From a virus, in the UHGV virus genome UHGV-0119120: a DNA stretch of 34,560 nt. One strand, written 5' to 3'. The notes beneath the pieces were generated by a model. It saw only the letters and a list, made by a program, of their open reading frames with translations. It had not been told where the DNA came from and made no database searches. Position numbers and translations under genes: made by a program. Of the stretch, positions 12,931 to 26,931 are shown in pieces. The first letter of the stretch is position 1. Every line of letters begins with the position of its first letter.

Positions 12931-13872
12931 TCAGATACCGTCCACGTAGGACAGGGTTTCTTTGTACACTGGCTCAACCGCACCGAGCTTGCCGTAGTAG
13001 GTCGCAATCTGATACAGACCGCGATACTGGACAGGAACGCTCTGCAACGGCACCAGCGGATAGCGCACGTATTTCTTGTCGTTGGTGTAGGCGATCATAC
13101 GGTCTTTACCGCCAACCCCACGCCCTTTCAGCCATTTGACCGCTTTGATTTCAAGCGGAACGCCGTTCTGGTGGAAAGCGATAGTGTTCACAGCCAGATA
13201 GGTCAGCAGTGACTGGTTACCCGCTTCGGAAACCTTACGGCTCGCCAGCAGTGAATACTGCTCTGGCGGAATGCGCAGATCAGAAGGCACGATGGAATAA
13301 CCGGATGCTGCCCAGGCATTAGACAGAATGCTGTTCACGCTATCGAGGATCTCGTCGTTGGTTGAGTTCGCCCAGGTCTTCGGCGCATTGTTCAGCGTCA
13401 CACCGACAAGGTTTGCCAGCCCTTTCAGGCCGAGCGCATCATCGCCGATGTAAACCTGCTCGTCGTTATCCATCTGCCATTTGAGCTGCATCCCGTCGTA
13501 CTTCTGGGTATCAATCGGGCGACCTACCTGCTGAGCTGCTGCCAGCTCTACAACGGTCCAGCCCAGTTCCATACCCCAGAGGTTCAGTGGATTGCCGTCT
13601 TTGCTGATATCCACGTTCACGCCAGCAATAGCGGTGGAGTCTTTGCCTACCCAGTTTTTACCATTCGGATTTGCGCCAGTACCAGCAGCGCCAAAACTGG
13701 TGTTAGTCCAGCTGGAAATGTCATCTGCGATAGAAACGTCTTCACGCAGCTGAATATCGCGGGTCCAGGTGTAACCCACCAGCGGCAGGTTCAGCGTCTG
13801 GTCGAGTCGCTCCAGCTCCCCGATGAGAAAGGCACCAGAGCTATCAACGGTTGCCTGATCAAAAGTAATCAT
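12931..13872 (-). CDS. major capsid protein (DUF2184-like, HK97 fold family)
   Basis: 313 aa ORF in the canonical position after the small head protein; sequence character matches myophage major capsid proteins. Confidence 0.65.
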   Translation of the reverse strand: MITFDQATVDSSGAFLIGELERLDQTLNLPLVGYTWTRDIQLREDVSIADDISSWTNTSFGAAGTGANPNGKNWVGKDSTAIAGVNVDISKDGNPLNLWGMELGWTVVELAAAQQVGRPIDTQKYDGMQLKWQMDNDEQVYIGDDALGLKGLANLVGVTLNNAPKTWANSTNDEILDSVNSILSNAWAASGYSIVPSDLRIPPEQYSLLASRKVSEAGNQSLLTYLAVNTIAFHQNGVPLEIKAVKWLKGRGVGGKDRMIAYTNDKKYVRYPLVPLQSVPVQYRGLYQIATYYGKLGAVEPVYKETLSYVDGI

Positions 13873-13883
13873 TCGTCTGTTCC

Positions 13884-14366
13884 TTAAATCTTCCAGGAGA
13901 TTTCTGCATTGCCGTTAGCGTCACCGGCCCCTGTGAATTCGGCGTTGGTCAGCGCCACGTTTTTGCCACTGACGGACGTGGACATGAAGCCGCCCAGCGG
14001 CACTTTGATGGATTCATCAGTGGAGACGACAACGTATACCGGGTCGCCTTTTTTGATGGTGCTGGCATCAAAATCAGAACCGAGATTAACGGTCATGTAG
14101 CCACGCTTCATGGCGTCACCCGGGAAGTTCTTATCCGTCCCCACCTGGCGAACCATGTCTGGCTGCGATGTGGTCGGATACGGACGAACGTAGATCCCCT
14201 TCACCTTGTCGGCGGTGTCACCGTCCGCCAGCGGCACGAAAAAGCCGTCAGCGTCATATTTGCCAGCCAGACCATAGGCAGCGAAGGCGTTAGCGGATTT
14301 AAGGATCACCGGTTCGACGGTTAAGTCCTGCGGGCGAGAGATAGCCCCGGCAATGCCAACAGGCAT
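13884..14366 (-). CDS. head structural protein (DUF2190-like)
   Basis: 160 aa ORF immediately upstream of the capsid gene; first morphogenesis gene after the island. Confidence 0.5.
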   Translation of the reverse strand: MPVGIAGAISRPQDLTVEPVILKSANAFAAYGLAGKYDADGFFVPLADGDTADKVKGIYVRPYPTTSQPDMVRQVGTDKNFPGDAMKRGYMTVNLGSDFDASTIKKGDPVYVVVSTDESIKVPLGGFMSTSVSGKNVALTNAEFTGAGDANGNAEISWKI

Positions 14367-14507
14367 CCGGTACAGGAATGCAAGGCTATTATTTAATCAC
14401 CTGAAATATAAGGATTTATTTGCAGTCTGATTTTGCGTGTAGTCCAAAAACTGCTCTGTGATGTATGGCGCTGAATGGGGTAAGTTACTCAATACCAGAT
14501 GTGACAT

Positions 14508-14756
14508 TTAGCGGCACATCATCCGGTAGCGCTCACCTGACGTTCTGGGATCCTCGAATTTTGATTCTAACTGGTGTACTGGCGGAGAATAGCAACCGCT
14601 GGAAACCATATTGGCGATATCTGCCGGGCTGCGGGGGTCGTCATACAGCATAATTAACGCTTCTGCGATTTCTTTGGTGCTAGCCTCCACGCTTAAAGGT
14701 TTAGTCTTAGCCATGACTTTCTCCAGTGCGATGATGCGTTTTATCCGTTCATTCAT
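14508..14756 (-). CDS. hypothetical small protein
   Basis: 82 aa ORF; its ATG overlaps the stop of the DUF5681-like gene (ATGAATGA). Confidence 0.35.
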   Translation of the reverse strand: MNERIKRIIALEKVMAKTKPLSVEASTKEIAEALIMLYDDPRSPADIANMVSSGCYSPPVHQLESKFEDPRTSGERYRMMCR

Positions 14757-15183
14757 TATGTTCTCCTTCCAGACGGGCTATGCGTTCTTCTAGCTCAGTT
14801 ATTTCAATGACTTTCATCATGCTGGCTAGCCCATCAAGTATAACCTTACCTTGATCTGCTGATAACGTCCCAGCGGCTATAGCTTTCATCACCGAACGGG
14901 CCAGCGACTGTGGGTCTGAGTCATCGAGATCAAAGGGCGTTGGAGGCAATATTGGTTTGCTTGGCGGGACAATGCGATCGAGGATGATTCTGCACGCTGC
15001 CATATCGCCTTTTCTGGCTTTTTTTAGAATGGCATCCGCTGCATCCTCCGCCCCCTCCGCCAGAAGGTTACGCAATTCAGTAGCTGTTTTTGGTCTACCT
15101 CCGGGATTCCCGCTATTCCCCTTAGCAAACTGGCCGCGCTTATTCCGTGTTACCTGTTTTTGCCTGTTCTCAGGTGCTGCCAT
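14749..15183 (-). CDS. DUF5681-like phage protein
   Basis: 144 aa; N-terminal KRGQFAKGNSGNPGGRPK motif characteristic of DUF5681; coiled-coil C-terminus. Confidence 0.5.
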   Translation of the reverse strand: MAAPENRQKQVTRNKRGQFAKGNSGNPGGRPKTATELRNLLAEGAEDAADAILKKARKGDMAACRIILDRIVPPSKPILPPTPFDLDDSDPQSLARSVMKAIAAGTLSADQGKVILDGLASMMKVIEITELEERIARLEGEHNE

Positions 15184-15228
15184 TATTAATCACCTTCAAT
15201 AAGTTACAGATCCTCTCATGGGTAGCTA

Positions 15229-15801
15229 TCACTCTCTCTCCAGATCCTCAAGAGAGCAGCAAATATGCTGTGTTGAAACAAAATAGCTCAGCATGCTGCT
15301 TACCTTGTTTGACGCGACGTAATTATAATGCTCGACCATCTTTGCTAACGCGATAATCTCCCACCAGTAATGCTTAACTAGCTTTAGCGAAATTAAATAA
15401 GCCCGGCTATAGAGCTTGTCGCAATCATCTCCTGTTGCGCCTTGGTTCCTGTATTGCTCAAGCACTTTCCGAATATCGCTGGCGTCTCCTTTCCCTCCAT
15501 TTTCCAGTAGTTTTTCAGGTGGTTCGCCTGAGTAAAGGTGTTGTGCCATTACGCCAGAAAAAGAGACGACCATCTGCGCCAGTTCATCTTTTCTGACGGG
15601 GAGATGTGAGCATACCGCCCGGCAATTATCGACCTCTTTGCCGTTAGCCAGTCGAGCAATACGAAACTCATCAGCAATAGATATCTCAATTTGCCTAGCA
15701 CCCGTAAACCACGCAGCCATCGCGTGACCGGCTTCATGGATCGCGATATTTCTGTCCCACATAGGGCTTTTGCTGAATTCAACAATTACGCCATCACTCA
15801 C
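15229..15801 (-). CDS. standalone zinc-metalloprotease domain protein, FtsH (peptidase M41)-like, no AAA+ module
   Basis: 190 aa; AIHEAGHAMAAW matches the FtsH catalytic HEAGHA zinc-binding motif; downstream KDELAQMVVSFSGVMAQHLYSG and GDASDIRKV parallel the FtsH SRQKLESQISTLYGGRLAEEIIYG and ASNDIKVAT segments. No Walker motifs. Confidence 0.5.
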   Translation of the reverse strand: MSDGVIVEFSKSPMWDRNIAIHEAGHAMAAWFTGARQIEISIADEFRIARLANGKEVDNCRAVCSHLPVRKDELAQMVVSFSGVMAQHLYSGEPPEKLLENGGKGDASDIRKVLEQYRNQGATGDDCDKLYSRAYLISLKLVKHYWWEIIALAKMVEHYNYVASNKVSSMLSYFVSTQHICCSLEDLERE

Positions 15802-15863
15802 GCTGCTTACTCTCCGTTAGATCTGTCATTTAGTTAAATTTAACTGCGTTGGGGGAGTCTCCA

Positions 15864-16040
15864 TCACACACTCCCTTCAACGGCCATTGATTCCAGCGCC
15901 TTAGCCACCAGCCCACGTGCAATTTGGTGGATAGACGGCGCTACGCCAATATCGGAGCGCTGGCGTTCGCGCTCCTGGATCTTGCAGATTGCGGCGAACT
16001 GGTCGCCAGAGAGTAATACCGGCTTAACGTTTGGCTTTTT
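15864..16040 (-). CDS. hypothetical small basic protein (possible DNA-binding)
   Basis: Likely start MKKPNVKPVLLSGDQ inside the 95 aa track ORF; overlaps the stop of the upstream 64 aa ORF. Confidence 0.3.
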   Translation of the reverse strand, partial: KKPNVKPVLLSGDQFAAICKIQERERQRSDIGVAPSIHQIARGLVAKALESMAVEGSV

Positions 16041-16218
16041 CATCCTGTTCACTCCAGAACTTTGCATTCGCTTCGTTGACTTTTTCCAGATTGCGGCATT
16101 CGTTGTTGAAGTTGTTACGCATCCGCAATTGCTCGGCCTGTTCACGGCCAAAGAGTTTACGCCCGGCGCTTTGCGGGTTTCCTGCTGCTAATTTTGGGTC
16201 ATAAATAGCCATGCTCAT
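16024..16218 (-). CDS. hypothetical small protein
   Basis: 64 aa ORF packed between the 187 aa gene and the next small ORF. Confidence 0.3.
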   Translation of the reverse strand: MSMAIYDPKLAAGNPQSAGRKLFGREQAEQLRMRNNFNNECRNLEKVNEANAKFWSEQDEKAKR

Positions 16219-16224
16219 TGCTCC

Positions 16225-16788
16225 TTACTTCGTGCGATGCCAGAAACTGGCGTTGTCGGTGTTAATGCTGCGAATGGCGTCGCCTGTGGAGAGAATCTTC
16301 GGTGAAACGTTGTTAACTCGCATGTAGTCGCCAACCTGCTCCAGAACGTCGATAGCCTGATCAAGCTGAATCTCTGATAGCGGGGTCGGATGTACCGCAC
16401 TGAATGCCTCAGCGGGTGCGTAACGCAGCACATCAAGCGCAACAAGGCGAGGATCGGTATCAGGAAGGGCATTGTCATACTTTGGCGCTACAGCGCGTAC
16501 CAGGCGCATAAATTCAGCGTCCATTGACGTTGGCGCGGTGGAGGTCGTGGAAGCGCCGCTGCCACTGCGAGTAATCATGTCACTATCGCGGGTGTACATC
16601 CGACGCAGGCGGTCGCCAGTTGCAATGCGTGTTGCACGTTCCTGCTTAAGCGTCGTTGCAAGATTCGCAATGACGAGAGCCACAGGAAGCGAGCAGGTCA
16701 GCCTTTCGAACGTATCATCGGAGTAAGTCACCTCGACGGTACCACCAGCGTTATCACTTTCCAGATTAACATTGGTTATCTGTTTCAT
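16225..16788 (-). CDS. hypothetical protein, first gene of the island accessory module
   Basis: 187 aa ORF with AAGG RBS; preceded by a palindromic operator-like region. Confidence 0.45.
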   Translation of the reverse strand: MKQITNVNLESDNAGGTVEVTYSDDTFERLTCSLPVALVIANLATTLKQERATRIATGDRLRRMYTRDSDMITRSGSGASTTSTAPTSMDAEFMRLVRAVAPKYDNALPDTDPRLVALDVLRYAPAEAFSAVHPTPLSEIQLDQAIDVLEQVGDYMRVNNVSPKILSTGDAIRSINTDNASFWHRTK

Positions 16789-16823
16789 TGTTCATAACCT
16801 TTTGCGTTGTTTAAATTCTAATC

Positions 16824-16840
16824 ATTGCATAAATTGCAAT
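16824..16840. promoter_or_regulatory. perfect 17-bp palindrome ATTGCATAAATTGCAAT (candidate operator)
   Basis: Read directly; lies about 40-60 bp upstream of the 187 aa gene start, with a related half-site ATCATTGCG at 16851-16859. Confidence 0.35.
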
Positions 16841-16938
16841 GTTAGTAAATATCATTGCGTATATTGAAATGATAAATCGACGTGATACTATGACGGTGAT
16901 CCACCATTGTGTGATTGCATAAACATGGTTAACAAAAG

Positions 16939-16973
16939 CCCTCGCCTCTCCAGCGCGGGCTTTTTCTTTTCCG
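16939..16973. terminator. hairpin with flanking T/A runs (candidate bidirectional terminator between origin and accessory operon)
   Basis: AGCCCTCGC-CTCTCCA-GCGCGGGCT stem-loop (8/9 bp) followed by TTTTTCTTTT on the plus strand and preceded by AAAA. Confidence 0.4.
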
Positions 16974-17072
16974 CTCCGCAAAGTTGCCGTTTCCGCATAC
17001 TGTCGCTTAGGCGATGCCCCTCCAAATTCGTAATTACTCTCCGAAAAAAACTCTATAGATAAACAAAAACAT

Positions 17073-17365
17073 GTTGGTTCAGTTGGTTCAGTTGGTTCAA
17101 TTTGTAAAGATTGTTGTTTTATAAGGATTATTTCTTTCGGAGTGAACCAACAAAGCCCCATTTTGAACCAACAAACGCTATTTTCGTGTTGGTTCAGTGG
17201 GAAAGATTTACAGGCCAGCCAGAAAAGGGCGTTGGTTCAATAGCGGCATTTGTTGGTTCAAAATGGGGCTTTGTTGGTTCGGTGTTGGTTCACTTACAAG
17301 CATGTAAATGCATTAAATACATACACTTATATTAATTAAATAGTTACTGAACCAACTGAACCAAC
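17073..17365. repeat. iteron array, putative origin of replication
   Basis: At least 11 copies of GTTGGTTCA / TGAACCAAC, including three tandem copies at 17073-17099. A 29-bp perfect inverted repeat GAACCAACAAAGCCCCATTTTGAACCAAC sits at 17145-17173 and 17252-17280, with an AT-rich stretch at about 17300-17345. Directly downstream of the primase-helicase stop. Confidence 0.6.
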
Positions 17366-17390
17366 AAAAAAACATCTCGTATGTGTGTTT

Positions 17391-20171
17391 TTATTCTTCA
17401 CCCTCTATCTCGTCGGGTCGTAGCTGGAGCACATAAACGTTTATCTGGCGTCCATCAATTCGCGGGGATTTACGCTGATACCCCCTTCCGCTGGCTGGCG
17501 GTTTCAGCACCCCAGCCCCGGCCAGCACACGGGCAAACTGTTTCGCGTTGAATCCCTTCGCAATCTCACCTTCGAATGCTGCCGGGAACGTGTAGAACAC
17601 TATCGGATCAGCATCATGCGCCCCTTTCTGACGGTACCCGGCCAAATCCCGAATCGGCATGTCAGCCGGGTCATAAGGGTAAGGTGCAAATCGGCTCAGT
17701 CCGTATGCATTAAGAAACGCCTCTGCCTGCTCGATGATCTGCTTATGCTCACGGTTCCCCGTGCCAAACTCTTTCACCCAGGCGTTAAAGCCATGCTGGA
17801 TGGCGTCCCGGCTTTCCTGCTCCCCCCAGCCAGTGACAGGCATCCCCAGCACCAGCGCCGCCTCCAGAATAGCGAACCGCTCGCCTACACGATGAACCTG
17901 TTCGCCATAATCAGCAGGGATAAGACTACGCCAGCGCTCCTGCGCCGCTTTGACAGCTTGTTTTGCCTCCTGCTGGTGGCCTGCAAGCCATTTAATCCAT
18001 TCACGGCCTGCGGCTCCGTGGTTCGTCTGGTAAGCCTCTTTGAGTGCGTCGGCGTGTTGCTTCCCGTTCTGGTACTCATGGTGCGTTACTGATTTCTCCA
18101 TCGGTAAATTAAGCAATCGCACCAGTTGCCCGGCCTTAACTTTCAGCCCACCAGCAGAAAGAAACGTCTCAATGTCCATTTCCCCGGTACTGATCGCCAC
18201 GGTGCGCCAGCGCTTTAACTCACGGTTGCCGCCCTCCTTGGCCCCCTGTAGCTTTCCGGCACCGTTAAACAGCGTGTAAGCAGACGTAGCAACGTCTTTG
18301 GCGCTACTGCCCTGCCCCACTTCATCCAGCGGTAACAGGCTGTCGTTATGCGCTTCCGCTTCGTTGGCGATACCCAGCGCTGTACCGTACCAGGTAAGGC
18401 GCAAGGCATCCGGTTCACCGTATAAACTGCTGGCAATGTTGGCGGTGGTTGTCTTCCCTGCGCTGGACTGCTCGAAAAGATGCACGCCGAACCCGTCAGC
18501 GCCAACAAGCCCGATCAGCGGCGCAGAAAGCGCAGCAGCAACACCCAGCATCATTGACGGGTTTCCCAGCGCAAGACGCGCCACCGAATCACGCCAGCTT
18601 TCCGGCGTTCCACTGACGGTATAGCCACCAGCCGCCGCACTCCGACCACTGAATAACAGCGGTATCTCTGGCTCACCAATAACATCACCATCCGGCATGA
18701 TGTACGCCCCGTTGTGCCAGCCTGTGGTGTGGCTGATCTGCCATTCCTTGCCGCTACCAGTTCGCTGCAGCCAGTCGGCCAGAATTGCCCGCAACGATGG
18801 TTTGGTTGTCACACTGACACCGCCGTTTTTCAGCGTGCGCCATCCCTCACGGTCGCCAATGTCCTCCCATGGAAGCGCACGGGTAACTTGCCCCCGGTTG
18901 CCGGGGACGTCCCAACGCAGGATCAGAAAGCGCTGTCTGGCGTTATCACTCCCCGCACCAGCAATCTCCAGCGGAGAGCATAGCCACGCCTCGGTATTGA
19001 TAATTTCTCCTGTGTCTTTGTCCACTTTCGGGGTGATCCAGTGAATGCCATCCGCACGGCTCTCTACTCGCGGTTTCAGATCGTCGTCGATACCAAGTTT
19101 TTTCTTGCCGCCGTCGATAGCTGTCAGTGTCGCACCCACTTTCTTACCCTCCGGTTGATACATTGAGTCGTTAAATGCTGCTGTGGCCGCTTCGAGGCCG
19201 TATTGCTGGTGGTAGTCGTTCCAGTCCGCTTTATAGTCCACTGGTGGCATGGAAACCCAGCCAGAAACGGCTTTCGCGGCTTTCTCTGCGGCCTCCTTGC
19301 CAGTGTTAACTTTCACTCCTTTAATTCCGTCACTTTCGCCCATCTGGTCGTTATCTGCGGCAATGATGATTTGTGCCTGTGGGTACTTCCGGCGCATCAC
19401 TTCGGCAACGGGTAGCAGGTTGCCCGCGTCAATTGCTGCCACTGCCAGCGCGTCCGGGCGCATCAGGTGAACTGAAAGGGCCGTCGCCAGCCCCTCGGCA
19501 ATTAAAACGCTCTGCGGCGATTCTGGCGCGTTTACGGCATGATATGCCCCGCGCTTTGCTGAACCTGTCAGGAGTCGCTTCTCTCCCTGCGGTGTAATGG
19601 TTTGCGCTGCTGCCACTGCGCCGGATTCGTCCACCAGCTCCAGCAATAACGAACCATCAGGCATAACCGGATAGTTAAACCCGGTCAGCCCTTTTGATTG
19701 CAGGTAATCAGATTCGCCCTGTGTGGCACTCTGGCGCATTCCGGCATACAGACGGGCAAACGTAGCCCTTCGCTGCTCTGCGTCCCCTGCTGCCTGTTTC
19801 TGGCGCTCCTGCTCACGCTGCTGGCGGTCAGCTTCCAGTTGCTCCCTTCTATGGCTCGCTGCCACCGGGTCGGATTGCGCTGCCAGGTAATCAATACCCA
19901 GCACGTCAGCGGCAAGCTGTGCCGCCTCCGTAGTGTCGCAGTTGTTAACCCGCTTGATTAAATCCAGCCCGTCACCAGCGCCACACTGGTTGCAGATAAA
20001 GCTACCGCGCCCGTTGTCGTCGAATCTGAAACGGTCTTTTCCACCACATGCAGGGCATGGAGAATGGCGGCGCGATGAATCAGGCACGTCGATAGACAAC
20101 CCAGCCAGCACATAAGGCCAGCGCCCTGCTGCGGCGCTGGTCACTTCGCGGATAAGGTCGATATTACGCAT
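17391..20171 (-). CDS. primase-helicase (zinc ribbon + Toprim primase + P-loop NTPase)
   Basis: Likely start MRNIDLI with AGGAGG RBS. N-terminal CPACGGKDRFRF...CNQCG zinc ribbon; Toprim-like acidic motifs (LIAEGLATA, IIIAADNDQMGE); Walker A-like SSAGKTT. Confidence 0.8.
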   Translation of the reverse strand: MRNIDLIREVTSAAAGRWPYVLAGLSIDVPDSSRRHSPCPACGGKDRFRFDDNGRGSFICNQCGAGDGLDLIKRVNNCDTTEAAQLAADVLGIDYLAAQSDPVAASHRREQLEADRQQREQERQKQAAGDAEQRRATFARLYAGMRQSATQGESDYLQSKGLTGFNYPVMPDGSLLLELVDESGAVAAAQTITPQGEKRLLTGSAKRGAYHAVNAPESPQSVLIAEGLATALSVHLMRPDALAVAAIDAGNLLPVAEVMRRKYPQAQIIIAADNDQMGESDGIKGVKVNTGKEAAEKAAKAVSGWVSMPPVDYKADWNDYHQQYGLEAATAAFNDSMYQPEGKKVGATLTAIDGGKKKLGIDDDLKPRVESRADGIHWITPKVDKDTGEIINTEAWLCSPLEIAGAGSDNARQRFLILRWDVPGNRGQVTRALPWEDIGDREGWRTLKNGGVSVTTKPSLRAILADWLQRTGSGKEWQISHTTGWHNGAYIMPDGDVIGEPEIPLLFSGRSAAAGGYTVSGTPESWRDSVARLALGNPSMMLGVAAALSAPLIGLVGADGFGVHLFEQSSAGKTTTANIASSLYGEPDALRLTWYGTALGIANEAEAHNDSLLPLDEVGQGSSAKDVATSAYTLFNGAGKLQGAKEGGNRELKRWRTVAISTGEMDIETFLSAGGLKVKAGQLVRLLNLPMEKSVTHHEYQNGKQHADALKEAYQTNHGAAGREWIKWLAGHQQEAKQAVKAAQERWRSLIPADYGEQVHRVGERFAILEAALVLGMPVTGWGEQESRDAIQHGFNAWVKEFGTGNREHKQIIEQAEAFLNAYGLSRFAPYPYDPADMPIRDLAGYRQKGAHDADPIVFYTFPAAFEGEIAKGFNAKQFARVLAGAGVLKPPASGRGYQRKSPRIDGRQINVYVLQLRPDEIEGEE

Positions 20172-20505
20172 GGTTGCCTCCTGCCACGGTCGCGCCCATA
20201 TCATTAATCATGCTTTGCCATATCTCGCGCCCGACGTCAGTCAATCCGTCCTTAGTGACGCAACGATCAAGAAGCTCGATCCCCACGGTTTCCCACTGCG
20301 GGTAGAACACTTTCATGGCTGCCAGTGTGTAGCTATCGATCAGGCTGCGAACGCCTTTTACTCCATTGACGATTTCCACACGGACGGCGAGGCCGTCCGC
20401 ATCAACCATGAAATAGTCCCCGCCGCTGGTGGCGGTAATGTGGTTATACAGTGCCGACGCATACTTATTCGCCAGCGCATTCAGTCGGAAATTTTTAGTA
20501 ATCAT
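20164..20505 (-). CDS. hypothetical protein (replication operon)
   Basis: 113 aa ORF; stop overlaps the primase start (ATGCGTAA). Confidence 0.4.
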   Translation of the reverse strand: MITKNFRLNALANKYASALYNHITATSGGDYFMVDADGLAVRVEIVNGVKGVRSLIDSYTLAAMKVFYPQWETVGIELLDRCVTKDGLTDVGREIWQSMINDMGATVAGGNHA

Positions 20506-20514
20506 GTCGCCCCC

Positions 20515-21141
20515 TCAGTGCGCCAGCGGCATTTCAGGCCAGCCGTTTTCATCCAGTTCAGCTATAAAGCTGTTGTGAAGTTCAGCAAGCGTTTCACGCC
20601 CGAACGGGGTCAGCTCGCCGCGCTCCGTGTCGATCATGGCCTGATAAAAAACAATGGCGTTCGCTGTTCCCTGCTCAACGCCGTAGCGCTCAATCATTGC
20701 GCCCTCGATGTTGTTCGCCATCGCCAGCCGTTCAGCAAACGGGTAAACCACCATGCCCGCATTACCATTGGAGTAAATCGCCACCTGCGATGATGTGCCG
20801 TCAGCCTCAGTAACCGTGGTGGTGCCGTTCTCGCGCTTCATCTCAGAAACGAACGTCGCAGCAATCAGCCAGCGCCACATAGTGACGTTATGCTGCGCGG
20901 TGAAGTCGAACCAGCCACGCTCCCCGCCGTCAGCCACTGCCAAATGCAGGGCAAATCCTTCATCGGTCTTATTGTCATACTCACCCGCATCCAGACGTAC
21001 TACGACTTTTTCGTAGTTGATAAGAGCAACATGCTCATACATTCCGGCATCATTGCGGGTCATGATATTGACGCCGTGCGGTGTGGCTTCGGCGTGGAAC
21101 AGGTCGGGATTTCCCGGTTTAATGGTCAGTATATTGCTCAT
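20515..21141 (-). CDS. hypothetical protein (replication operon)
   Basis: 208 aa ORF, tightly packed in the operon. Confidence 0.45.
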   Translation of the reverse strand: MSNILTIKPGNPDLFHAEATPHGVNIMTRNDAGMYEHVALINYEKVVVRLDAGEYDNKTDEGFALHLAVADGGERGWFDFTAQHNVTMWRWLIAATFVSEMKRENGTTTVTEADGTSSQVAIYSNGNAGMVVYPFAERLAMANNIEGAMIERYGVEQGTANAIVFYQAMIDTERGELTPFGRETLAELHNSFIAELDENGWPEMPLAH

Positions 21142-21359
21142 GCTTTGCCCTCCCGATATTCACGCATTACATGGTCAGCTAGCTTGCTTTCAGCCTCGCT
21201 CATTGCTTCGGGCACACCGTGTAACAGCGTCAGAATGGAACCTATAAGGCGTGGTAAATCGGGATCTGTTTTATTGGTGGTGCTCTCCAGCCACATGGAC
21301 AAAACAGCCTGTGCCTGTTCAATCTGGCAGGCAGCATCAATCAGTTGTAACTGGCTCAT
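21138..21359 (-). CDS. hypothetical small protein
   Basis: 73 aa ORF with 4-nt overlaps to neighbours. Confidence 0.35.
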   Translation of the reverse strand: MSQLQLIDAACQIEQAQAVLSMWLESTTNKTDPDLPRLIGSILTLLHGVPEAMSEAESKLADHVMREYREGKA

Positions 21360-21619
21360 GCGCTGCCCTCCGCATCAATTCTGGCTATATCGACAATCGT
21401 CAGGACTTTACTAAGCCAGCAATACGCGATGGCTGCTTGCTCAACTTCGAGGAGTGGTAATAAATCGGTCATAACGTGAGCCAGCCCATTGCGGGCGCGG
21501 GTCATGCGTTCTGCGGTACGCTCTGCCAGCGTGAAAGAGTCAGGGTACGGCTGTTCGCGGGATAGCATCGCCTCGGCCTCAAGATCTGCAGGATGGCGAT
21601 AGATGGTATGAATGTTCAC
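21356..21619 (-). CDS. hypothetical small protein
   Basis: 87 aa ORF with GTG start, overlapping neighbours. Confidence 0.35.
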   Translation of the reverse strand: MNIHTIYRHPADLEAEAMLSREQPYPDSFTLAERTAERMTRARNGLAHVMTDLLPLLEVEQAAIAYCWLSKVLTIVDIARIDAEGSA

Positions 21620-21795
21620 GCTGCCACCTCCTGAATACGAGTAATACGAACGTGCTTATAACCGCCTTTATTCGCCAGTAGTTGCGCAGTCGATTTAGCT
21701 GTTTCTGGACTGGTGCTAGTCATGGTGTAGTGAATGCCGACGGTGTTACCGCGCTTGTTAACAGCGTATCCGTCGATCTGGAAGGTTTTACGCAT
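21616..21795 (-). CDS. hypothetical small protein (59 aa, below ORF-track cutoff)
   Basis: ATG overlaps the stop of the recombinase gene (AATGCGTAA); translation MRKTFQIDGYAVNKRGNTVGIHYTMTSTSPETAKSTAQLLANKGGYKHVRITRIQEVAA. Confidence 0.3.
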   Translation of the reverse strand: MRKTFQIDGYAVNKRGNTVGIHYTMTSTSPETAKSTAQLLANKGGYKHVRITRIQEVAA

Positions 21796-22666
21796 TTCCG
21801 ACCTCCATTGCTAAACGGGACTGGATAGCTGCCGCTTTACTGCCTAATTGCAGGTAAGTACGAGTTATCGCAGGGTTGCTATGACCCAGCATTTCAGAGG
21901 CCACTAATAGGCCCTGTTCGCCACCTGCGGACATGAGGTTAAAGGCGGCTATTTTGCGGCTTGAGTAGGCGCTCAGGCGCAATTTAGCGTTAATGAAACG
22001 GGTAAACCACGCCATGACGCCATGAAGTTTGCGCCAGATGGTTTGGCGAGTAACGCTACCTTCCAGACGTTGACAACGGTTACTTTCGATTTGAGAGCGG
22101 GAAAATACCAGGTCGTCCTCCACCAGATTCCGATCCTGACGGTCACGCAGCCGCTTGATAATGCCGGGGGGTAACTGTTTGGTGTCGTGCTTGACGTCAG
22201 CCTTAGCCACCAGCCCGAACACAATCGCCTGTTCTTCGTCGTTCATATCGGCGGCCAGTTCATCACAGCCGATACTATCCCACTTCATGTAGGCGATATG
22301 GTCAGCGGCGAGCCGCGCGGCGTCCTTGCGCTGCTGGCGCACAATTTCAATACCTTTGCGGGTTGCCCGCGCTTCTGCGGCTTTGGTCTGTTTGGAAACG
22401 ATAATTGTCGCCTGTCCAGTTTCCCAATTGATGCAGGAATAGCGCAGGTTGCAAACGTCGCTGGTACGCCAGCCGGTTACGGTCGCAATATCCCACCAGA
22501 GCAACACCCAATCGGGCTGTGTCTGCTGGATGCGCTCGCGTAGCTTGCGCTGCTCGTCACGGTCATAGACAGGGGTCATGGTGCGACTGCCCTTTGTGCT
22601 CGCCGCTTTAACGACATTGCCGCGCAGCTCGCGGGCTTTGGCTGTCAGAGTCTGGAGGTTAAACAT
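21788..22666 (-). CDS. tyrosine recombinase / integrase-like protein (second recombinase)
   Basis: Likely start MFNLQTL at 22666; C-terminal LGHSNPAITRTYLQ resembles the His...Tyr catalytic end of tyrosine recombinases; candidate box I Arg in TGWRTSDV. Confidence 0.55.
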   Translation of the reverse strand: MFNLQTLTAKARELRGNVVKAASTKGSRTMTPVYDRDEQRKLRERIQQTQPDWVLLWWDIATVTGWRTSDVCNLRYSCINWETGQATIIVSKQTKAAEARATRKGIEIVRQQRKDAARLAADHIAYMKWDSIGCDELAADMNDEEQAIVFGLVAKADVKHDTKQLPPGIIKRLRDRQDRNLVEDDLVFSRSQIESNRCQRLEGSVTRQTIWRKLHGVMAWFTRFINAKLRLSAYSSRKIAAFNLMSAGGEQGLLVASEMLGHSNPAITRTYLQLGSKAAAIQSRLAMEVGNA

Positions 22667-22847
22667 GACGCACCTCCGGCACTGGCAGACGTGCGGCCAG
22701 AGACAAAATAAAGTGCGGCGCAAGGATGCGGCGGGCTTCGCGTTCGGTCGCAGCCTCAACGGACAGACGGCAAGGTTTGGCTTTTTTATCGTGGCGATTC
22801 AGCGCGAGAAAGCGCCAGGTGAATTTTGAGTGTGCGGATCTAGCCAT
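22659..22847 (-). CDS. small protein upstream of the recombinase (possibly Icd-like)
   Basis: 62 aa ORF; stop overlaps the recombinase ATG (CATGTTTAA); ends ...FILSLAARLPVPE. Family assignment is from memory only. Confidence 0.3.
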   Translation of the reverse strand: MARSAHSKFTWRFLALNRHDKKAKPCRLSVEAATEREARRILAPHFILSLAARLPVPEVRHV

Positions 22848-23167
22848 TTTTAGCGGCTCCTAGAACATATTGAAGGAGTCTCGCCAGATGCTGCTAAACA
22901 TGGGTGGCGAGACGTGACGGGGTTAGCAGACTGGCGTTCTAGGAAACCAGCAGGCGTTAAGCCTCCCCACCACGCCCCGCCATAAATCGGGGGTATGGTT
23001 GGTTTTCGGGCGTAAAAATACCGCTATACGGAAATCAGCGGCTACCCGCTAGAACGTTCAGGCTGCTAAACCCGGCACCCGTTTTGTGAGGTGCGAAATA
23101 ATCATAACCACACTACCCCGTTAAGCGCAAGGGAAATATCCCCTGCGCCCACAATGCAAACTTGTTA

Positions 23168-24238
23168 TTAGTACCCGCGAGAAGCGTAAACTCGTGCCAT
23201 GCCAGCCCAATGAGAGAAAAGAATTTCCCACTTAATTGGGTTGTAGGTAATACTTCCATCGACTGCGGCAGCATTCCATGCCCGATCAGAAATAGAGCTA
23301 TCTTTAGCAGTTTTCCCCCATTCAACAATATCCCTTGCTAAAGCCTGTACACATGCTCGACTGACTACCTTTTCGTCAACGTACGCCCCAACATCAGAGC
23401 ATGACTCCATACTCATGTTCAGGCTATTTTTAAGGGACTCCAGCCCGGCCACTGACATAAAGCGACGACCATTAGCGTATGCAACACCGTCATTCCTGAT
23501 AGTGAACTTAACAGTGTGGAATGCGTCAACAATCATCCGCTGCTCTGGCGTCGGGTTCTGCCATAGCACAAGGTTAATCTCTCTCTCAGAAGCTATTGAT
23601 TCTGCTTTCTCACGCTTAACTCGTGCATCCCGTTCTGCCTGGTATTGTTTTTGATTTTCATCATGAGCCTTTTGGTAACTAGAGGCTAATGCGTCTCTGT
23701 TTTTGGCAAATGCTGCAATGCTATTTTTGAAATCGCTTCTGCTAACCTTGTTTAACCCCATACTCCAGCGGTCATTTTCGTAATCATCATAAATGGCATC
23801 AACTTTTGCCGGATTACTCAGCACAGTCGCCAGATTAACCGGAATTTTAGCCATCTCGTCACTGATTCTCGCTACATGTTCGAAAGTCGATATAGAGCCA
23901 ACTTCATGACTCCCATACTCATGATAAGCGGCATAAAAAATTGGAATAGATTGAGGTTTTTCGTTCACTGACTTAATGATGCTTTTTTCATCACATGACT
24001 GTTCACCCCATTTGAAAACACTTTTCCCACCATTTTTGTATGTGTTGCAATCATCAATACCCAAACGAACCAGCGCATCCCATCCGGGCCGTTTCTTGTA
24101 ATCCTCGCTCTTGACAACATGCATTGTGGTTAGGGCTTTCGCAGGATCTAACTTGCCAGCGGTACAAGACACGATAGGAAAGGCCAGAGAAGCGCAGGCT
24201 GCTATCCTGAAAAGGCTCGTCAATCTTTCTTTTTTCAT
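23168..24238 (-). CDS. lipoprotein, unknown function (island cargo)
   Basis: 356 aa; N-terminal MKKERLTSLFRIAACASLAFPIVSC has a lipobox (IVSC); central Lys/Glu-rich coiled-coil segment; gene is visibly more AT-rich than its flanks. Confidence 0.55.
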   Translation of the reverse strand: MKKERLTSLFRIAACASLAFPIVSCTAGKLDPAKALTTMHVVKSEDYKKRPGWDALVRLGIDDCNTYKNGGKSVFKWGEQSCDEKSIIKSVNEKPQSIPIFYAAYHEYGSHEVGSISTFEHVARISDEMAKIPVNLATVLSNPAKVDAIYDDYENDRWSMGLNKVSRSDFKNSIAAFAKNRDALASSYQKAHDENQKQYQAERDARVKREKAESIASEREINLVLWQNPTPEQRMIVDAFHTVKFTIRNDGVAYANGRRFMSVAGLESLKNSLNMSMESCSDVGAYVDEKVVSRACVQALARDIVEWGKTAKDSSISDRAWNAAAVDGSITYNPIKWEILFSHWAGMARVYASRGY

Positions 24239-24402
24239 CGTCCTAATGCTCTTTCAAACCAAGAATGTAGGACATAGTAAATTGTGGTTAATGGCAAGTC
24301 GATATAAAGGCCGGGTTATTGGCTTCGGTGCCAATATCATTTCTCCGAAATTTCATAACGCCTGTAATCGCTCGTTTCCCCATCTTGGGGACATTTCAAA
24401 AC

Positions 24403-24523
24403 TGCGAATCAAAGTGCGAATGGAACTGCGAATTCGCAAAGAGAGAGCGCCGCTCAAAGCAGGCCGGATAAGGCTTCGCGGACATATTGCGAATGCGAAT
24501 CCACCAGAAACGAAACGCGAATC
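24403..24523. repeat. cluster of TGCGAAT heptamer repeats (candidate operator array)
   Basis: TGCGAAT at 24403, 24415 and 24427 (12-bp phasing), the third within the palindrome TGCGAATTCGCA; further copies at 24488, 24495 (GCGAAT) and 24517 (CGCGAAT). Lies 165-285 bp upstream of the lipoprotein gene. Confidence 0.4.
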
Positions 24524-25079
24524 ACCCATAAACAAAACCGATACGCAGGGAGCGTACTGCCCGTATTCAATCGGCCGAAAAGTCAGCCGATTAAAATCAT
24601 GCCCGGCTATCCCCTGAAATTTCAGGAGATCGAGAGCCACCAGCAGAGAACCGTTCATGCCATCGGTAACTTGCAGCCCGAAGCTCAAATCTGAGCGTTG
24701 ACCGCCAGCCAGAAGAAACCATTTTAAATCCCGCGCCTTCTCTTTGGATGAACAGGGTTACTCCCCGTAATGCTGTGAACTGCCACGATGATTCGGGGTT
24801 GTGTTGCGCTGGCCTTTGAGTCCCGCACAAACACTGACCCACAAAATTTTTGTAGGTGACTGGCCCTCTTGATGAGGTGCTGTTTTGCGTAACCCTTAAT
24901 GAGTTGTGCAAAGGCTCAACCCTTTAAAAGGGTTGCCTAACCACCGGCGATAGTAATAACCGCCAACCTATGAACACTATGAACACCTTTGAGCATTTTT
25001 CTATAAACATTCCACTACTGCCCTATTTGATGCCTTTCTCTGGCTGGCCTGTGTAAGTTACCGTTGCTGGGAACTGACA

Positions 25080-25115
25080 ATAAAAAAGGCTTGCCCCTCT
25101 CAGGTAACAAGCCTT
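25080..25115 (-). terminator. rho-independent terminator downstream of the AlpA-like gene
   Basis: Minus-strand hairpin AAGGCTTG-(14 nt)-CAAGCCTT followed by TTTTTT, about 20 nt after the stop at 25133. Confidence 0.5.
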
Positions 25116-25132
25116 GTCTATCGCTCTGGATC

Positions 25133-25345
25133 TCACTCACTACAGATTCCGCGCTTTTGGCTCTGTCTTCCGATCCACGCCTCCACCTCATCGCGATACC
25201 AGCAATTGCGGCCGCCAACTTTGAAGGGCATCGGAAAGCCGTTCCCCTCATCCTTCAGAAATTCATAGAACGCAGAATCAGAACGGTAGCGTAGACGGGC
25301 TTTAACTTCGACTTTGAGCAAAATATCACTGTTAGATATGGACAT
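25133..25345 (-). CDS. alpA: AlpA-family transcriptional regulator / excisionase-like protein
   Basis: 70 aa; ...GFPMPFKVGGRNCWYRDEVEAWI matches the AlpA helix-turn-helix pattern; GAGG RBS and two TATAAT-like elements upstream. Confidence 0.6.
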   Translation of the reverse strand: MSISNSDILLKVEVKARLRYRSDSAFYEFLKDEGNGFPMPFKVGGRNCWYRDEVEAWIGRQSQKRGICSE

Positions 25346-25400
25346 AAAAACCTCATTATATATTCGATATAATTATATATGATTTGAATAAAAAAAACGC
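25346..25400 (-). promoter_or_regulatory. AT-rich candidate promoter for the AlpA-like gene
   Basis: Minus strand shows TATAAT-like hexamers within 40 nt upstream of the start codon, between the integrase terminator and the gene. Confidence 0.3.
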
Positions 25401-25420
25401 ATTCCGGTTAGCTTTGGGCA

Positions 25421-25446
25421 TAAAAAAAGCTGGCTTAAAGCCAGCT
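25421..25446 (-). terminator. rho-independent terminator downstream of the P4-type integrase
   Basis: Perfect inverted repeat AGCTGGCTT-A-AAGCCAGCT followed on the minus strand by a run of 7 T. Confidence 0.55.
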
Positions 25447-25487
25447 ATACCCGTTTGAAATCATGATTATCCAGAAATGGATGTGCC

Positions 25488-26717
25488 TTACACAACCAGC
25501 CTCAAGCCCTTATCGCCGCTGGTCTCCAGTATTTCGCCACACTCTGCGGCCTCGATAAAGTCCCCCCACCATTGCATTAAAACCCGGCGTTTTTCCAGAT
25601 AGTCGCTACGGTTATAAACATTTCGAATCGCATCGGCGCTTTTGTGAGCGAGTGCAGCCTCAATCACATCAGGGTTGAACCCCTCGTCATTTAAAACTGT
25701 AGATGCCAACGCCCTGAACCCATGAGGAACAATCAGCCCTTTAAACGACGTTTTGTGTATCCCGGCCTGAGTCGCACAGCGTGAGATCGGCTTATTTTCT
25801 TTTCGCCATGAGGGGAAAACATAATCGCAGCGCTTCCACTTTTCGGCCTCTTTAAGCACGTTTATAGCCTGGCTCGATAATGGGACTACGTGGGGGCGCT
25901 TTCCTTTCATCCGGCTTGCAGGGATTTGCCAGATTGAGTTATCAAAATCAATCTCATTCCAGAGAGCGCCGCCAGCCTCCGAAGGCCGGACCATCGTAAT
26001 GATCTGAAATAATAATGCCAGCTTTGATGGCTCCCATAAGCTCAACTCGTTCCATGCGCTTAAAAATTCGGGCAACCGCTCTTTCTGTAAAGTCGCTCTT
26101 GGCTCGTTTTTTTCAGCCGGGAATGCTTTACCAATTTTCGATAGCGGGTTGTGCTCAATAACCCCAATGTTTACCGCATAATCCATTATGGCGTTGATGG
26201 TAATAACCATTTTCGTAAGCGTTGATGGCCTTTCCCTGAAAGGTTTAAAAGCCTGAATAGTATCGGCTGCGTTTATTTTATGTACCGTGGTATGCCTAAA
26301 AATCGTGGAAAGATGCTTCAACGTCACATTGTGCGATTCAAGCGTGTTGCTTCTCGCACCTTCTTTAATCTTGATTTTTAGCCATTCATCGGCAACGGCC
26401 TGAAATGACTGCGCGTACATTTTACGCTGTTCATTCCTGGCATCTTTTTTGACTTCGTTCGGATCTATCCCTCGCGCTACCATACGGCGCAGTTTCGAAC
26501 GTTCCTCCCTCGCTTCGGACAAAGTAAACTCCGGGTATCGTCCAATAGTATAGGTTTGTCTCTTCTTCGTTACCGGGTGTACATACCGAAAACGCCATGA
26601 CTTACCGCCCCGGCTTGTGATGTAAAGCAACAAACCGAAACCATCGTGCAAACTGAAATCCTTGCCCTGTGCCTTCGCGCTTTTCACTTCGACGCTAGTT
26701 AGTGGCCTAACAATCAT
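25488..26717 (-). CDS. int: P4-type tyrosine integrase
   Basis: 409 aa; N-terminal ...LHDGFGLLLYITSRGGKSWRFRY is the typical arm-binding (DUF4102-like) signature of P4-family integrases. Confidence 0.75.
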   Translation of the reverse strand: MIVRPLTSVEVKSAKAQGKDFSLHDGFGLLLYITSRGGKSWRFRYVHPVTKKRQTYTIGRYPEFTLSEAREERSKLRRMVARGIDPNEVKKDARNEQRKMYAQSFQAVADEWLKIKIKEGARSNTLESHNVTLKHLSTIFRHTTVHKINAADTIQAFKPFRERPSTLTKMVITINAIMDYAVNIGVIEHNPLSKIGKAFPAEKNEPRATLQKERLPEFLSAWNELSLWEPSKLALLFQIITMVRPSEAGGALWNEIDFDNSIWQIPASRMKGKRPHVVPLSSQAINVLKEAEKWKRCDYVFPSWRKENKPISRCATQAGIHKTSFKGLIVPHGFRALASTVLNDEGFNPDVIEAALAHKSADAIRNVYNRSDYLEKRRVLMQWWGDFIEAAECGEILETSGDKGLRLVV

Positions 26718-26931
26718 TCAACACCTCTCTGGCTACCATGTAATGCAAACGGCGCATGATTCTCTTTCTAGTCCCTCATGTACCGAATCAAAGCGAAATC
26801 CGGCGAATAAATCCGCACATGTTCGGAGTGTCATTTTTATGGTTCAGGCCAGTAACGCCGTATGATTCCGAACGATAACGCACTGATTAATAGATATTAG
26901 TTGCATAAGGTACAGATATGCAGTCATTGGA

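What the first reader, a model, noticed from the sequence alone, without database searches (positions are those of the whole stretch)
17073..17365. Iteron-based origin with long inverted repeats next to the primase-helicase gene
Read directly: at least 11 copies of the 9-mer GTTGGTTCA in both orientations, three tandem copies, a 29-bp perfect inverted repeat pair and an adjacent AT-rich stretch, all within 300 bp of the primase-helicase 3' end. This is the architecture of a cognate origin (compare P4 ori/crr with alpha) and implies autonomous replication of the island.
Basis: seen in the sequence. Interest (0 to 1): 0.55.

Follow-up and report, generated by a model that had tools for sequence, protein, structure and literature searches.

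The report
Satellite replication origin beside its primase-helicase
The repeat cluster is real and is very probably the replication origin of a 12.5-kb phage satellite (a PICI) sitting inside a prophage; origins of this kind next to the satellite's primase-helicase gene are already known, so it is a clean but ordinary example.

Summary
There are 11 exact GTTGGTTCA copies plus one variant at 17073-17365 (0.29 expected by chance). A 32-bp perfect inverted repeat and two AT-rich spacers lie 26-318 bp past the stop of a 937-aa primase-helicase.

The island is a 12,540-bp PICI-type satellite embedded in a prophage late gene (an HE-PICI). Origins 3' of pri, with iteron sets flanking an AT-rich region, are already described for PICIs and were tested in EcCICFT073.

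Comparative evidence here is strong:
- All 32 relatives with readable downstream DNA carry a repeated 8-10-mer in the same place; most full-length ones have 10-12 copies.
- Iteron columns are 97% conserved against 55% for the spacers.
- At least eight iteron variants exist, and they track only the last 77 residues of the protein.
- In one lineage every iteron copy (about a dozen) changed GT to TC, while a basic loop changed YQRKSPRI to YQGRV-RE.

The helicase and C-terminal domain resemble the SaPI Rep initiator. Only the N-terminal primase domain is P4 alpha-like.

Verdict: a new member of a known kind. No replication was tested.

The parts
17391..20204 (-). Primase-helicase (Pri-Rep fusion), 937 aa. 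It carries a Zn-ribbon primase domain, a Toprim domain, a DUF927 helicase (Walker A GKTT at residues 583-586) and a C-terminal domain.
   Evidence: Pfam hits: Zn_Ribbon_Prim 1.4e-15, Toprim_3 7.8e-14, DUF927 7.4e-46. PHROG 1139 'DNA primase' 3.7e-185. Residues 18-351 are 35% identical to P4 alpha (E 1e-45). Residues 436-833 match the SaPI Rep structure 8tch (E 3.9e-15).
17394..17624 (-). Codons for residues 861-937, the putative iteron-recognition part of the C-terminal domain. It includes the basic loop SGRGYQRKSPRIDGRQ (residues 905-920, nt 17445-17492).
17348..17365 (-). Two tandem iterons, the outer block nearest the gene.
   Evidence: The block is conserved in position in relatives.
17293..17347 (.). 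Proximal AT-rich spacer (78% AT), a candidate DNA-unwinding element.
   Evidence: 40-mers at 17300-17349 are in the least stable 0.1% of the window. AT content is kept at 67-84% in relatives although sequence identity is only 43%.
17231..17292 (+). Four iterons at 17231, 17252, 17273 (variant GTTGGTTCG) and 17284. Spacings are 21, 21 and 11 bp.
17188..17196 (+). Single iteron between the two modules.
17143..17172 (-). Two iterons 21 bp apart.
17100..17142 (.). Distal AT-rich spacer (74% AT), the second candidate unwinding element. It is conserved in sequence as well as in composition.
   Evidence: The 40-mer at 17100-17139 is in the least stable 0.3% of the window. Identity is 78% in distant relatives, against 43% for the proximal spacer. 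The same module is found at 86% identity in about 500 E. coli genomes.
17073..17099 (+). Three contiguous tandem iterons, the outer distal block.
   Evidence: It forms the conserved outer inverted repeat with 17346-17366.
17144..17280 (.). Inner inverted repeat. Arms are 17144-17175 and 17249-17280 (32 bp perfect; 35 nt with one mismatch).
   Evidence: It is not conserved: the closest relatives differ at 2-4 spacer bases per arm. It therefore looks like a lineage-specific homogenisation of two iteron pairs.
16934..16964 (.). GC-rich hairpin followed by T-runs on both strands. It is a probable bidirectional terminator that closes the pri-ori unit.
   Evidence: RNA folding gives -15.7 kcal/mol on + and -19.9 kcal/mol on -, with z-scores of -2.4 and -3.0. 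The simple terminator scan did not call it.
14369..26915 (-). The satellite island that owns the origin: 12,540 bp between two copies of the 7-bp core GGTACAG (14369-14375 and 26909-26915). It holds int at 25488-26717, an alpA-like gene at 25133-25345, C4 immunity RNA at 22900-22987, pri and ori. All are on the - strand and co-oriented with the prophage late genes.
   Evidence: The reconstructed empty site is 607/607 identical in E. coli EH09-18-41 and is covered at >=80% in 336 genomes. It spans 'structural cement protein Gp24 | DUF2213'. Integrase domains were found by Pfam. AlpA is weak, at 16.8 bits. C4 RNA scores 75 bits.

Best explanation
The 293-bp cluster is the vegetative replication origin of a PICI-type phage satellite that lies embedded in a prophage late gene.

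Proposed mechanism. Hexamers of the adjacent Pri-Rep protein recognise the 9-10-bp iterons (tGTTGGTTCA) through the winged-helix-like C-terminal domain. A basic loop at residues 905-920 contributes to specificity. The iterons form two modules, each made of inward-facing sets around an AT-rich spacer: 17073-17196 and 17231-17365. Binding on both sides melts the AT-rich spacer. The DUF927 (SaPI-Rep / MCM-like) helicase then loads itself, the N-terminal Zn-ribbon/Toprim primase makes the primers, and the host polymerase does the rest.

What is shown here: the anatomy, its conservation, selection on the iterons, iteron / C-terminal-domain co-variation, homology of the protein domains, and the island boundaries.

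What is inferred: binding, melting, helicase loading and actual replication.
For: (1) The cluster is not chance: 11 exact copies against 0.29 expected.

(2) Position and layout are conserved across genera. All 32 relatives of the primase-helicase with readable downstream DNA carry a repeated 8-10-mer starting about 20 bp after the stop codon. Most full-length ones have 10-12 copies in the same order: tandem block, AT spacer, inverted copies, second module, inverted tandem block.

(3) Selection acts on the iterons. In an 8-sequence alignment, 99 of 108 iteron columns are invariant against 52 of 185 other columns (Fisher p = 2e-28). In the four more distant relatives, identity is 97% in iterons and 55% between them. 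The spacers stay 67-84% AT.

(4) Specificity co-varies with the protein. At least eight iteron variants exist. Only residues 861-937 track them (AUC 0.93). L034 is 99% identical in the helicase core but 45% identical in the tail, and it has a different iteron.

(5) Concerted change. L006, L008 and L014 share a homologous origin backbone; their spacer identity of 57-66% equals that among loci with the same iteron. Yet every iteron copy reads GTTGTCTCA instead of GTTGGTTCA. Their C-terminal domain differs mainly by YQRKSPRI changing to YQGRV-RE.

(7) Unwinding elements. The AT spacers are among the least stable 0.1-0.3% of 40-mers in the window.

(8) Literature. GN-PICI origins lie 3' of pri, with two iteron sets flanking an AT-rich region. 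The EcCICFT073 pri-ori maintains a temperature-sensitive plasmid (PMC6092414). SaPI Reps bind iterons through a C-terminal winged helix and load themselves (PMC9371898). HE-PICIs carry their own primase and origin (PMC10111431).

(9) The iterons travel with pri, not with the downstream gene. The 187-aa downstream gene is present in only 3 of the 19 other loci with the same iteron.
Against: There is no experimental evidence for this element or for any DUF927-type enterobacterial PICI origin that I could find.

The validated EcCICFT073 origin uses an initiator with no detectable sequence similarity to this one (BLASTP E 0.045; D5_N/DUF5906/Pox_D5 family) and a different iteron.

The C-terminal domain and the origin are physically adjacent. 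Part of their co-variation could therefore be linkage, with the two swapped together as one module. The concerted 2-bp change argues against linkage alone.

No DnaA box, IHF site or GATC cluster was found.

In an HE-PICI the satellite can also be replicated passively with its helper, so the origin need not be essential.
Confidence: 0.85

Rival explanations
1. The cluster is a cis-acting replication enhancer like P4 crr. It would bind the initiator and be needed in cis, but initiation would start elsewhere in the island.
For: P4 crr lies immediately 3' of alpha. It consists of two modules with the same iteron pattern: one reversed, two forward, an AT-rich spacer, then two reversed. The N-terminal primase domain here is P4 alpha-like.
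Against: P4 has a second iteron cluster (ori) about 4.5 kb away. Here there is no other iteron copy in the island, even allowing one mismatch. Several relatives carry only one module directly after the gene. In PICIs and SaPIs the region 3' of rep is itself the origin.
Confidence: 0.06
2. The repeats are operators for transcriptional control or copy-number control only. They would serve autoregulation of pri, or regulation of the downstream 187-aa gene, without origin function.
For: The cluster lies between two transcription units. Plasmid iterons often double as control sites (own knowledge).
Against: The cluster is downstream of pri, not at its promoter. The downstream gene is present in only 3 of the 19 other loci with the same iteron. 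That gene has its own palindromes at 16823-16871. Two AT-rich spacers of extreme instability flanked by inward-facing sites fit an unwinding element better than an operator.
Confidence: 0.04
3. The cluster is a packaging (pac/cos) or recombination site, or a MITE-like mobile repeat bounded by terminal inverted repeats.
For: Outer inverted repeats of 21-43 nt bound a unit of about 300 bp. Fragments of it occur 1-6 times per genome in about 500 E. coli genomes.
Against: In every relative with readable downstream DNA the unit sits at the same place, right after the primase-helicase stop. The copies elsewhere that I inspected are PICI remnants next to a PerC gene. The repeat sequence co-varies with the primase C-terminus, not with a terminase, integrase or transposase. 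The att core is elsewhere.
Confidence: 0.02

Closest known systems
Gram-negative PICI replication origins (EcCICFT073 pri-ori; Fillol-Salom et al. 2018, PMC6092414), including helper-embedded PICIs (Tommasini et al. 2023, PMC10111431)
   Same: The island organisation is the same: int, alpA, variable zone with C4 RNA and Icd, pri, ori, late zone. It is unidirectional and 12.5 kb long. The origin lies immediately 3' of pri, with iteron sets flanking an AT-rich region. In EcCICFT073 I read the same layout directly, at L040 31997-32285. This island is embedded in a prophage late gene and co-oriented with it, as HE-PICIs are.
   Different: The initiator is a different protein family. Here it is Zn-ribbon + Toprim + DUF927. 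EcCICFT073 has D5_N/DUF5906/Pox_D5 (BLASTP E 0.045), and EcCI042 has a RepA/AAA_25 helicase. The iteron also differs: GTTGGTTCA here against CTGTCTACC / GGTAGAyA. The origin here is a double module with 12 sites. The integration site, the 5' end of a cement-protein gene, was not found in the parts of the HE-PICI paper's supplements that are held.
SaPI Rep / PriRep self-loading helicases and SaPI ori (Ubeda et al. 2007, as summarised in Qiao et al. 2022, PMC9371898)
   Different: SaPI iterons are 5-6 nt; here the core is 9-10 nt. Here there are two iteron/AT modules rather than one. The host is Gram-negative, and the primase domain is P4 alpha-like.
Satellite phage P4: alpha protein with ori and crr
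   Same: The N-terminal Zn-ribbon/Toprim primase domain is homologous (35% identity over about 350 aa, E 1e-45). The domain order is the same: primase, helicase, C-terminal DNA binder. P4 crr lies directly 3' of alpha and is made of two modules with the same iteron orientation pattern around an AT-rich spacer. A P4-type C4 immunity RNA is present in the island.
   Different: The helicase and origin-binding halves are not detectably related: DUF927 here, D5_N/DUF5906/Pox_D5 in P4. No P4 alpha structure appeared among the PDB sequence or fold hits. The iteron differs (TGTTCACC in P4). P4 needs two separated cis sites, whereas here there is a single cluster. The island has no sid, delta or psu.

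Membership tests
Gram-negative PICI replicon (pri-ori) | Origin immediately 3' of the pri/rep gene | tested here: met
   The cluster lies 26-318 bp past the stop at 17391. The same holds in all 32 relatives with readable downstream DNA.
Gram-negative PICI replicon (pri-ori) | [quoted passage not shown] | tested here: met
   There are two such modules: 17073-17099 / AT / 17143-17172, and 17231-17292 / AT / 17348-17365.
Gram-negative PICI replicon (pri-ori) | Island of 10-20 kb with int, alpA and pri transcribed in one direction, and with precise att sites | tested here: met
   The island is 12,540 bp, and the empty site is found 607/607 identical. Integrase was found by Pfam. pri is supported. 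The alpA-like ORF is only weak in Pfam (16.8 bits against a cut-off of 21), but its counterpart in EC2001 is annotated AlpA.
Gram-negative PICI replicon (pri-ori) | pri plus ori drive autonomous replication; helper-induced excision, replication and packaging | not testable with these tools
   This needs cloning and induction experiments.
Helper-embedded PICI (HE-PICI) | [quoted passage not shown] | tested here: met
   The insertion is in the first codons of the cement protein (Gp24-like) gene, next to the DUF2213 gene. All genes involved are on the - strand.
Helper-embedded PICI (HE-PICI) | Integrase belongs to the 11capE integrase clade, at one of the 14 published sites | not tested
   No phylogeny was made. 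'cement', 'DUF2213' and 'DUF2184' do not occur in the held supplement text.
SaPI Rep / ori system | Rep-type (DUF927 / MCM-like) helicase | tested here: met
   phmmer against 8tch gives E 3.9e-15 over residues 436-833. Cch 5dgk gives 7e-4.
SaPI Rep / ori system | C-terminal winged-helix domain that reads the iterons | tested here: inconclusive
SaPI Rep / ori system | Penta- or hexanucleotide iterons | tested here: not met
   The invariant core is 9 nt, or 10 with the preferred 5' T.
P4 alpha / ori / crr | Alpha-type primase domain (Zn ribbon + Toprim) | tested here: met
   35% identity, E 1e-45. The same Pfam domains are found in both proteins.
P4 alpha / ori / crr | D5-type SF3 helicase and P4-type origin-binding domain | tested here: not met
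   The protein has DUF927 instead of D5_N/DUF5906/Pox_D5. There is no BLASTP similarity beyond residue 351. No P4 alpha hit appeared in the PDB searches.
P4 alpha / ori / crr | Two separated iteron clusters (ori and crr), both required in cis | tested here: not met
   All iterons lie in one 293-bp cluster, and none lies elsewhere in the island. Compare the P4 annotation.
Classical plasmid iteron replicons (pSC101 / F / P1 type) | Direct 17-22-bp iterons with DnaA boxes and a RepA-type initiator | tested here: not met
   The sites are 9 bp long and occur in both orientations. No DnaA box, IHF site or GATC was found. The initiator is a primase-helicase.

The most novel reading that the evidence does not exclude
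The family may carry a simple, readable specificity code. A short basic loop in the C-terminal domain (residues about 905-920, YQRKSPRI here) would set which 9-mer the self-loading helicase accepts. A change of about five residues would retarget the whole origin, as in GTTGGTTCA to GTTGTCTCA. The eight or more iteron variants would then define mutually orthogonal replicons. This would let several satellites coexist in one cell, and it could be engineered. A secondary reading: the two-module origin fires while the satellite is still embedded, and so amplifies the neighbouring helper late genes.
Probability: 0.4. Interest if true: 0.45.

Novelty: new member of a known kind. Interest (0 to 1): 0.3.

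Why it matters
The finding shows that the island carries an intact-looking replicon of its own. That fits its identity as a phage satellite riding inside its helper prophage.

For specialists, the useful part is the comparative result. The DUF927-type PICI replicons of Enterobacterales share one conserved origin layout. They have diverged into at least eight iteron variants, each matched by changes in the last 77 residues of the initiator. This gives a direct, cheap experiment on how self-loading helicase-initiators read their origins: swap the loop and swap the iterons. It also gives a way to predict which satellites could cross-replicate or be incompatible.

It does not reveal a new kind of system.

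Tried and rejected
- Operator array for the downstream 'XRE-like' gene: rejected. That gene accompanies the same iterons in only 3 of the 19 other loci with the same iteron.
- Conserved long hairpin or cruciform: rejected. The 32-bp inner inverted repeat is absent from relatives 97% identical. Only the outer inverted tandem blocks are conserved.
- Host-factor sites: none. There is no consensus match for IHF, DnaA box or GATC in 17030-17400.
- Structured RNA: no Rfam family at the cluster. The only hit in 13500-27500 is C4 RNA at 22900-22987.
- Long att direct repeats (>= 10 bp): none found. The 7-bp core was found by eye and confirmed with the empty-site search.
- Same replicon as the validated EcCICFT073 or EcCI042: no. 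These are different initiator families.
- Two guesses at the EcCICFT073 coordinates were wasted.
- A literature search for the 9-mer itself returned only unrelated papers.
- The two Ubeda et al. SaPI origin papers are not held, so SaPI facts are cited through PMC9371898.
- The search for homologous proteins with the C-terminal 158 aa returned only short fragment proteins. These were adequate for an alignment but not diverse.
- The pattern-based terminator scan missed the hairpin at 16934-16964. Folding supports it.
- Pfam finds nothing in the last 179 aa.

Full report
**1. The observation**

The region 17073-17365 holds 11 exact copies of GTTGGTTCA. Seven are on the + strand and four on the - strand. 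No other exact copy exists in the 34.5-kb window. Dinucleotide-preserving shuffles give 0.29 copies on average, and none of 100 reached 11.

A twelfth copy, GTTGGTTCG, lies at 17273. One-mismatch copies elsewhere are at chance level, and none lies in the island. All nine core positions are invariant across the 12 sites except the last base of one site. A 5' T is preferred, giving the consensus tGTTGGTTCA.

The sites are arranged as follows on the + strand:
- three contiguous copies at 17073-17099 (+);
- an AT-rich spacer at 17100-17142;
- two copies 21 bp apart at 17143 and 17164 (-);
- one copy at 17188 (+);
- four copies at 17231, 17252, 17273 and 17284 (+; spacings 21, 21 and 11 bp);
- an AT-rich spacer at 17293-17347;
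- two contiguous copies at 17348-17365 (-).

So there are two modules, each with iterons facing inwards around an AT-rich spacer. The 40-mers in the two spacers are among the least stable 0.1-0.3% of the window by nearest-neighbour energy (GC profile).

The long inverted repeat is 32 bp perfect (17144-17175 / 17249-17280), or 35 nt with one mismatch. An outer 21-bp perfect inverted repeat joins the two terminal tandem blocks.

The cluster begins 26 bp after the stop codon of ORF 17391-20204 (-). A GC-rich hairpin with T-runs on both strands follows at 16934-16964.

**2. The neighbouring gene**

The 937-aa protein has a Zn-ribbon primase domain, a Toprim domain and a DUF927 helicase domain. It matches PHROG 1139 'DNA primase' end to end.

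It is a mosaic in evolutionary terms:
- Residues 18-351 are 35% identical to the primase domain of P4 alpha (E 1e-45).
- Residues 436-833 match the solved SaPI Rep initiator-helicase 8tch (E 3.9e-15). They match the SCCmec helicase Cch more weakly.
- P4 alpha and the EcCICFT073 Pri-Rep instead carry D5_N/DUF5906/Pox_D5 helicases.

**3. The island**

The genes int (25488-26717), an alpA-like ORF (25133-25345), a C4 / P4-CI-type immunity RNA (22900-22987), an Icd-like ORF, pri, and the origin all lie on the - strand.

The island is bounded by the 7-bp core GGTACAG at 14369-14375 and 26909-26915, giving 12,540 bp. Joining the flanks across one core yields a sequence that is 607/607 identical in E. 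coli EH09-18-41. The same sequence is covered at >=80% in 336 of 5,426 complete E. coli genomes. In those genomes it is annotated 'structural cement protein Gp24 | DUF2213 domain-containing protein'.

The island therefore sits in the first codons of a prophage late gene and is co-oriented with it. This is the helper-embedded PICI configuration described by Tommasini, Mageeney and Williams (PMC10111431).

**4. Comparative evidence on the repeat cluster**

Thirty-three loci encoding relatives of the protein were fetched from other genera, plus E. coli and Klebsiella records.

*Conserved position and layout.* In all 32 loci with readable downstream DNA, the most repeated 8-10-mer in the 750 bp after the stop forms a cluster. 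It starts about 20 bp after the stop and has the same order of blocks. Most full-length origins have 10-12 copies. Seven loci have only the first module.

*Selection on the iterons.* Among eight origins with the same iteron, 99 of 108 iteron columns are invariant against 52 of 185 other columns (Fisher p = 2e-28). In the four more distant relatives, identity is 97% in iterons and 55% between them. Both spacers stay 67-84% AT. The distal spacer is also conserved in sequence, at 78% against 43% for the proximal one.

*Co-variation with the protein tail.* The iteron differs between lineages:
- GTTGGTTCA (most loci)
- CGTGGTTCA
- GTTGTCTCA
- GTTGTCCCA / CTTGTCCCA
- CTTATCCCA
- AGTGGGTTA
- ACGGGTTAC
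- TGTGACCGG

Of six segments covering the last 480 residues, only 861-937 tracks iteron identity. Its pairwise AUC is 0.93, against 0.64-0.80 for the others. For example, L034 is 99% identical in residues 561-660 but 45% identical in the tail, and it has a different iteron.

*Concerted change.* The most telling case is L006 / L008 / L014. Their origin backbone is homologous to that of the GTTGGTTCA loci, with 57-66% spacer identity, the same as among the GTTGGTTCA loci themselves. Yet every iteron copy carries the same GT-to-TC change. Their C-terminal domain differs mainly by YQRKSPRI changing to YQGRV-RE, in the basic loop at residues 909-916. Linkage between the gene's 3' end and the origin cannot by itself produce about a dozen parallel changes. 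Selection for one common recognition sequence can.

*What is not conserved.* The long inner inverted repeat is absent from relatives 97% identical, which differ at 2-4 spacer bases per arm. Only the outer inverted tandem blocks are conserved.

**5. Mechanism**

The best-supported reading is a PICI / SaPI-type origin. The steps would be:
1. The Pri-Rep hexamer binds the iterons through its C-terminal winged-helix-like domain.
2. Binding on both sides of an AT-rich spacer melts it.
3. The helicase loads itself.
4. The fused primase primes synthesis.

This is the mechanism proposed for SaPI Reps. Those proteins bind 6-12 iterons immediately downstream of rep, with at least two on each side of an AT-rich centre, and they need no loader (PMC9371898).

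For Gram-negative PICIs the same origin layout 3' of pri was reported. The EcCICFT073 pri-ori segment maintained a temperature-sensitive plasmid only when both pri and ori were intact (PMC6092414). I read that origin directly at L040 31997-32285. It has the same layout with a different iteron (CTGTCTACC / GGTAGAyA), next to an initiator with no detectable sequence similarity to this one.

Binding, melting and replication are inferred for the present element. They are not shown.

**6. Rivals**

- *A crr-like enhancer.* This is the closest rival. P4 crr lies directly 3' of alpha and has two modules with the same orientation pattern. But the island has no second iteron cluster.
- *An operator array for the downstream 187-aa gene.* This is unlikely. 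That gene accompanies the iterons in only 3 other loci and has its own palindromes at 16823-16871.
- *A packaging site, recombination site or MITE.* These readings do not explain the fixed position after pri or the co-variation with its C-terminus.
- No DnaA, IHF or GATC motifs were found, and no Rfam family matches the cluster.

**7. Novelty and score**

The kind of element is known, and the HE-PICI paper already states that such satellites have their own primase and origin. I found no description of the origin of the DUF927-type enterobacterial replicons, nor of this iteron. Figure 2a of PMC6092414 is not readable here, however, and may show related origins.

I rate the finding a new member of a known kind, with interest 0.3. 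The specificity co-variation is the part worth an experiment.

Noticed in passing
window 14369-26915 (cores at 14369-14375 and 26909-26915): The island is a 12,540-bp satellite inserted in the first codons of a prophage 'cement protein Gp24' gene, next to the DUF2213 scaffold-like gene. The exact empty site exists in 336 complete E. coli genomes. The terms cement, DUF2213 and DUF2184 do not occur in the held supplements of the HE-PICI paper, so this may be an additional HE-PICI site group.
   Followed up: partly
window 22900-22987 (-): Rfam C4 antisense RNA (P4 CI-type immunity RNA) scores 75 bits against a gathering score of 45. It lies just upstream of an Icd-like ORF (22659-22847).
   Followed up: no
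window 16823-16841, 16853-16871 and 16914-16922: The palindrome CATTGCATAAATTGCAATG and a degenerate second copy 30 bp away lie in the 28-29% GC region upstream of the 187-aa gene (16225-16788, -). A third half-site is nearby. They look like operators of a different regulator. A sigma-70-like promoter on + (16864-16891) points at the hairpin at 16934-16964.
   Followed up: no
L002 6030-6150; L042 and L043 about 5001-5126 (E. coli 042, 214-4, P4): About 500 complete E. coli genomes carry an 86% identical copy of one origin module: three tandem iterons, the conserved AT spacer, and three inverted iterons. In the three genomes inspected it sits next to a PerC-family gene near dinD, with no primase gene beside it. 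It looks like an orphan half-origin left by a decayed PICI.
   Followed up: partly
window 21788-22759 (-): [quoted passage not shown]
   Followed up: no
window 23168-24238 (-): A 356-aa ORF with a lipoprotein-like N-terminus and no Pfam or PHROG match lies between alpA and the C4 RNA. It is probably an accessory (cargo) gene of the satellite.
   Followed up: no
L001 13374-17513 (E. coli EC2001): The closest related island (97.5% identical at the origin) carries, downstream of the origin, a second set of baseplate, plug and spike genes. They resemble those of its helper prophage and are an example of late-gene capture by the satellite.
   Followed up: no
L021, L025, L028: The primase-helicase reading frame is broken in these loci: tblastn matches fall in different frames, and the final ORFs are only 176-333 aa. 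The iteron clusters are kept nonetheless (a half-origin in L021). These are either decaying replicons or assembly errors.
   Followed up: no
L003 and L032 (contigs titled Chryseobacterium sp. 18061): Two contigs labelled Chryseobacterium encode primase-helicases 72-74% identical to this enterobacterial protein, and L003 has the same iterons. This suggests contamination or mislabelling of that assembly.
   Followed up: no
L037 (Klebsiella phage P12620-1, PQ569648.1, 91671-106503): A 106-kb record deposited as a phage genome ends with an int / primase-helicase / iteron-origin block of PICI type. This suggests either a satellite packaged or co-assembled with the phage, or a chimeric record.
   Followed up: no
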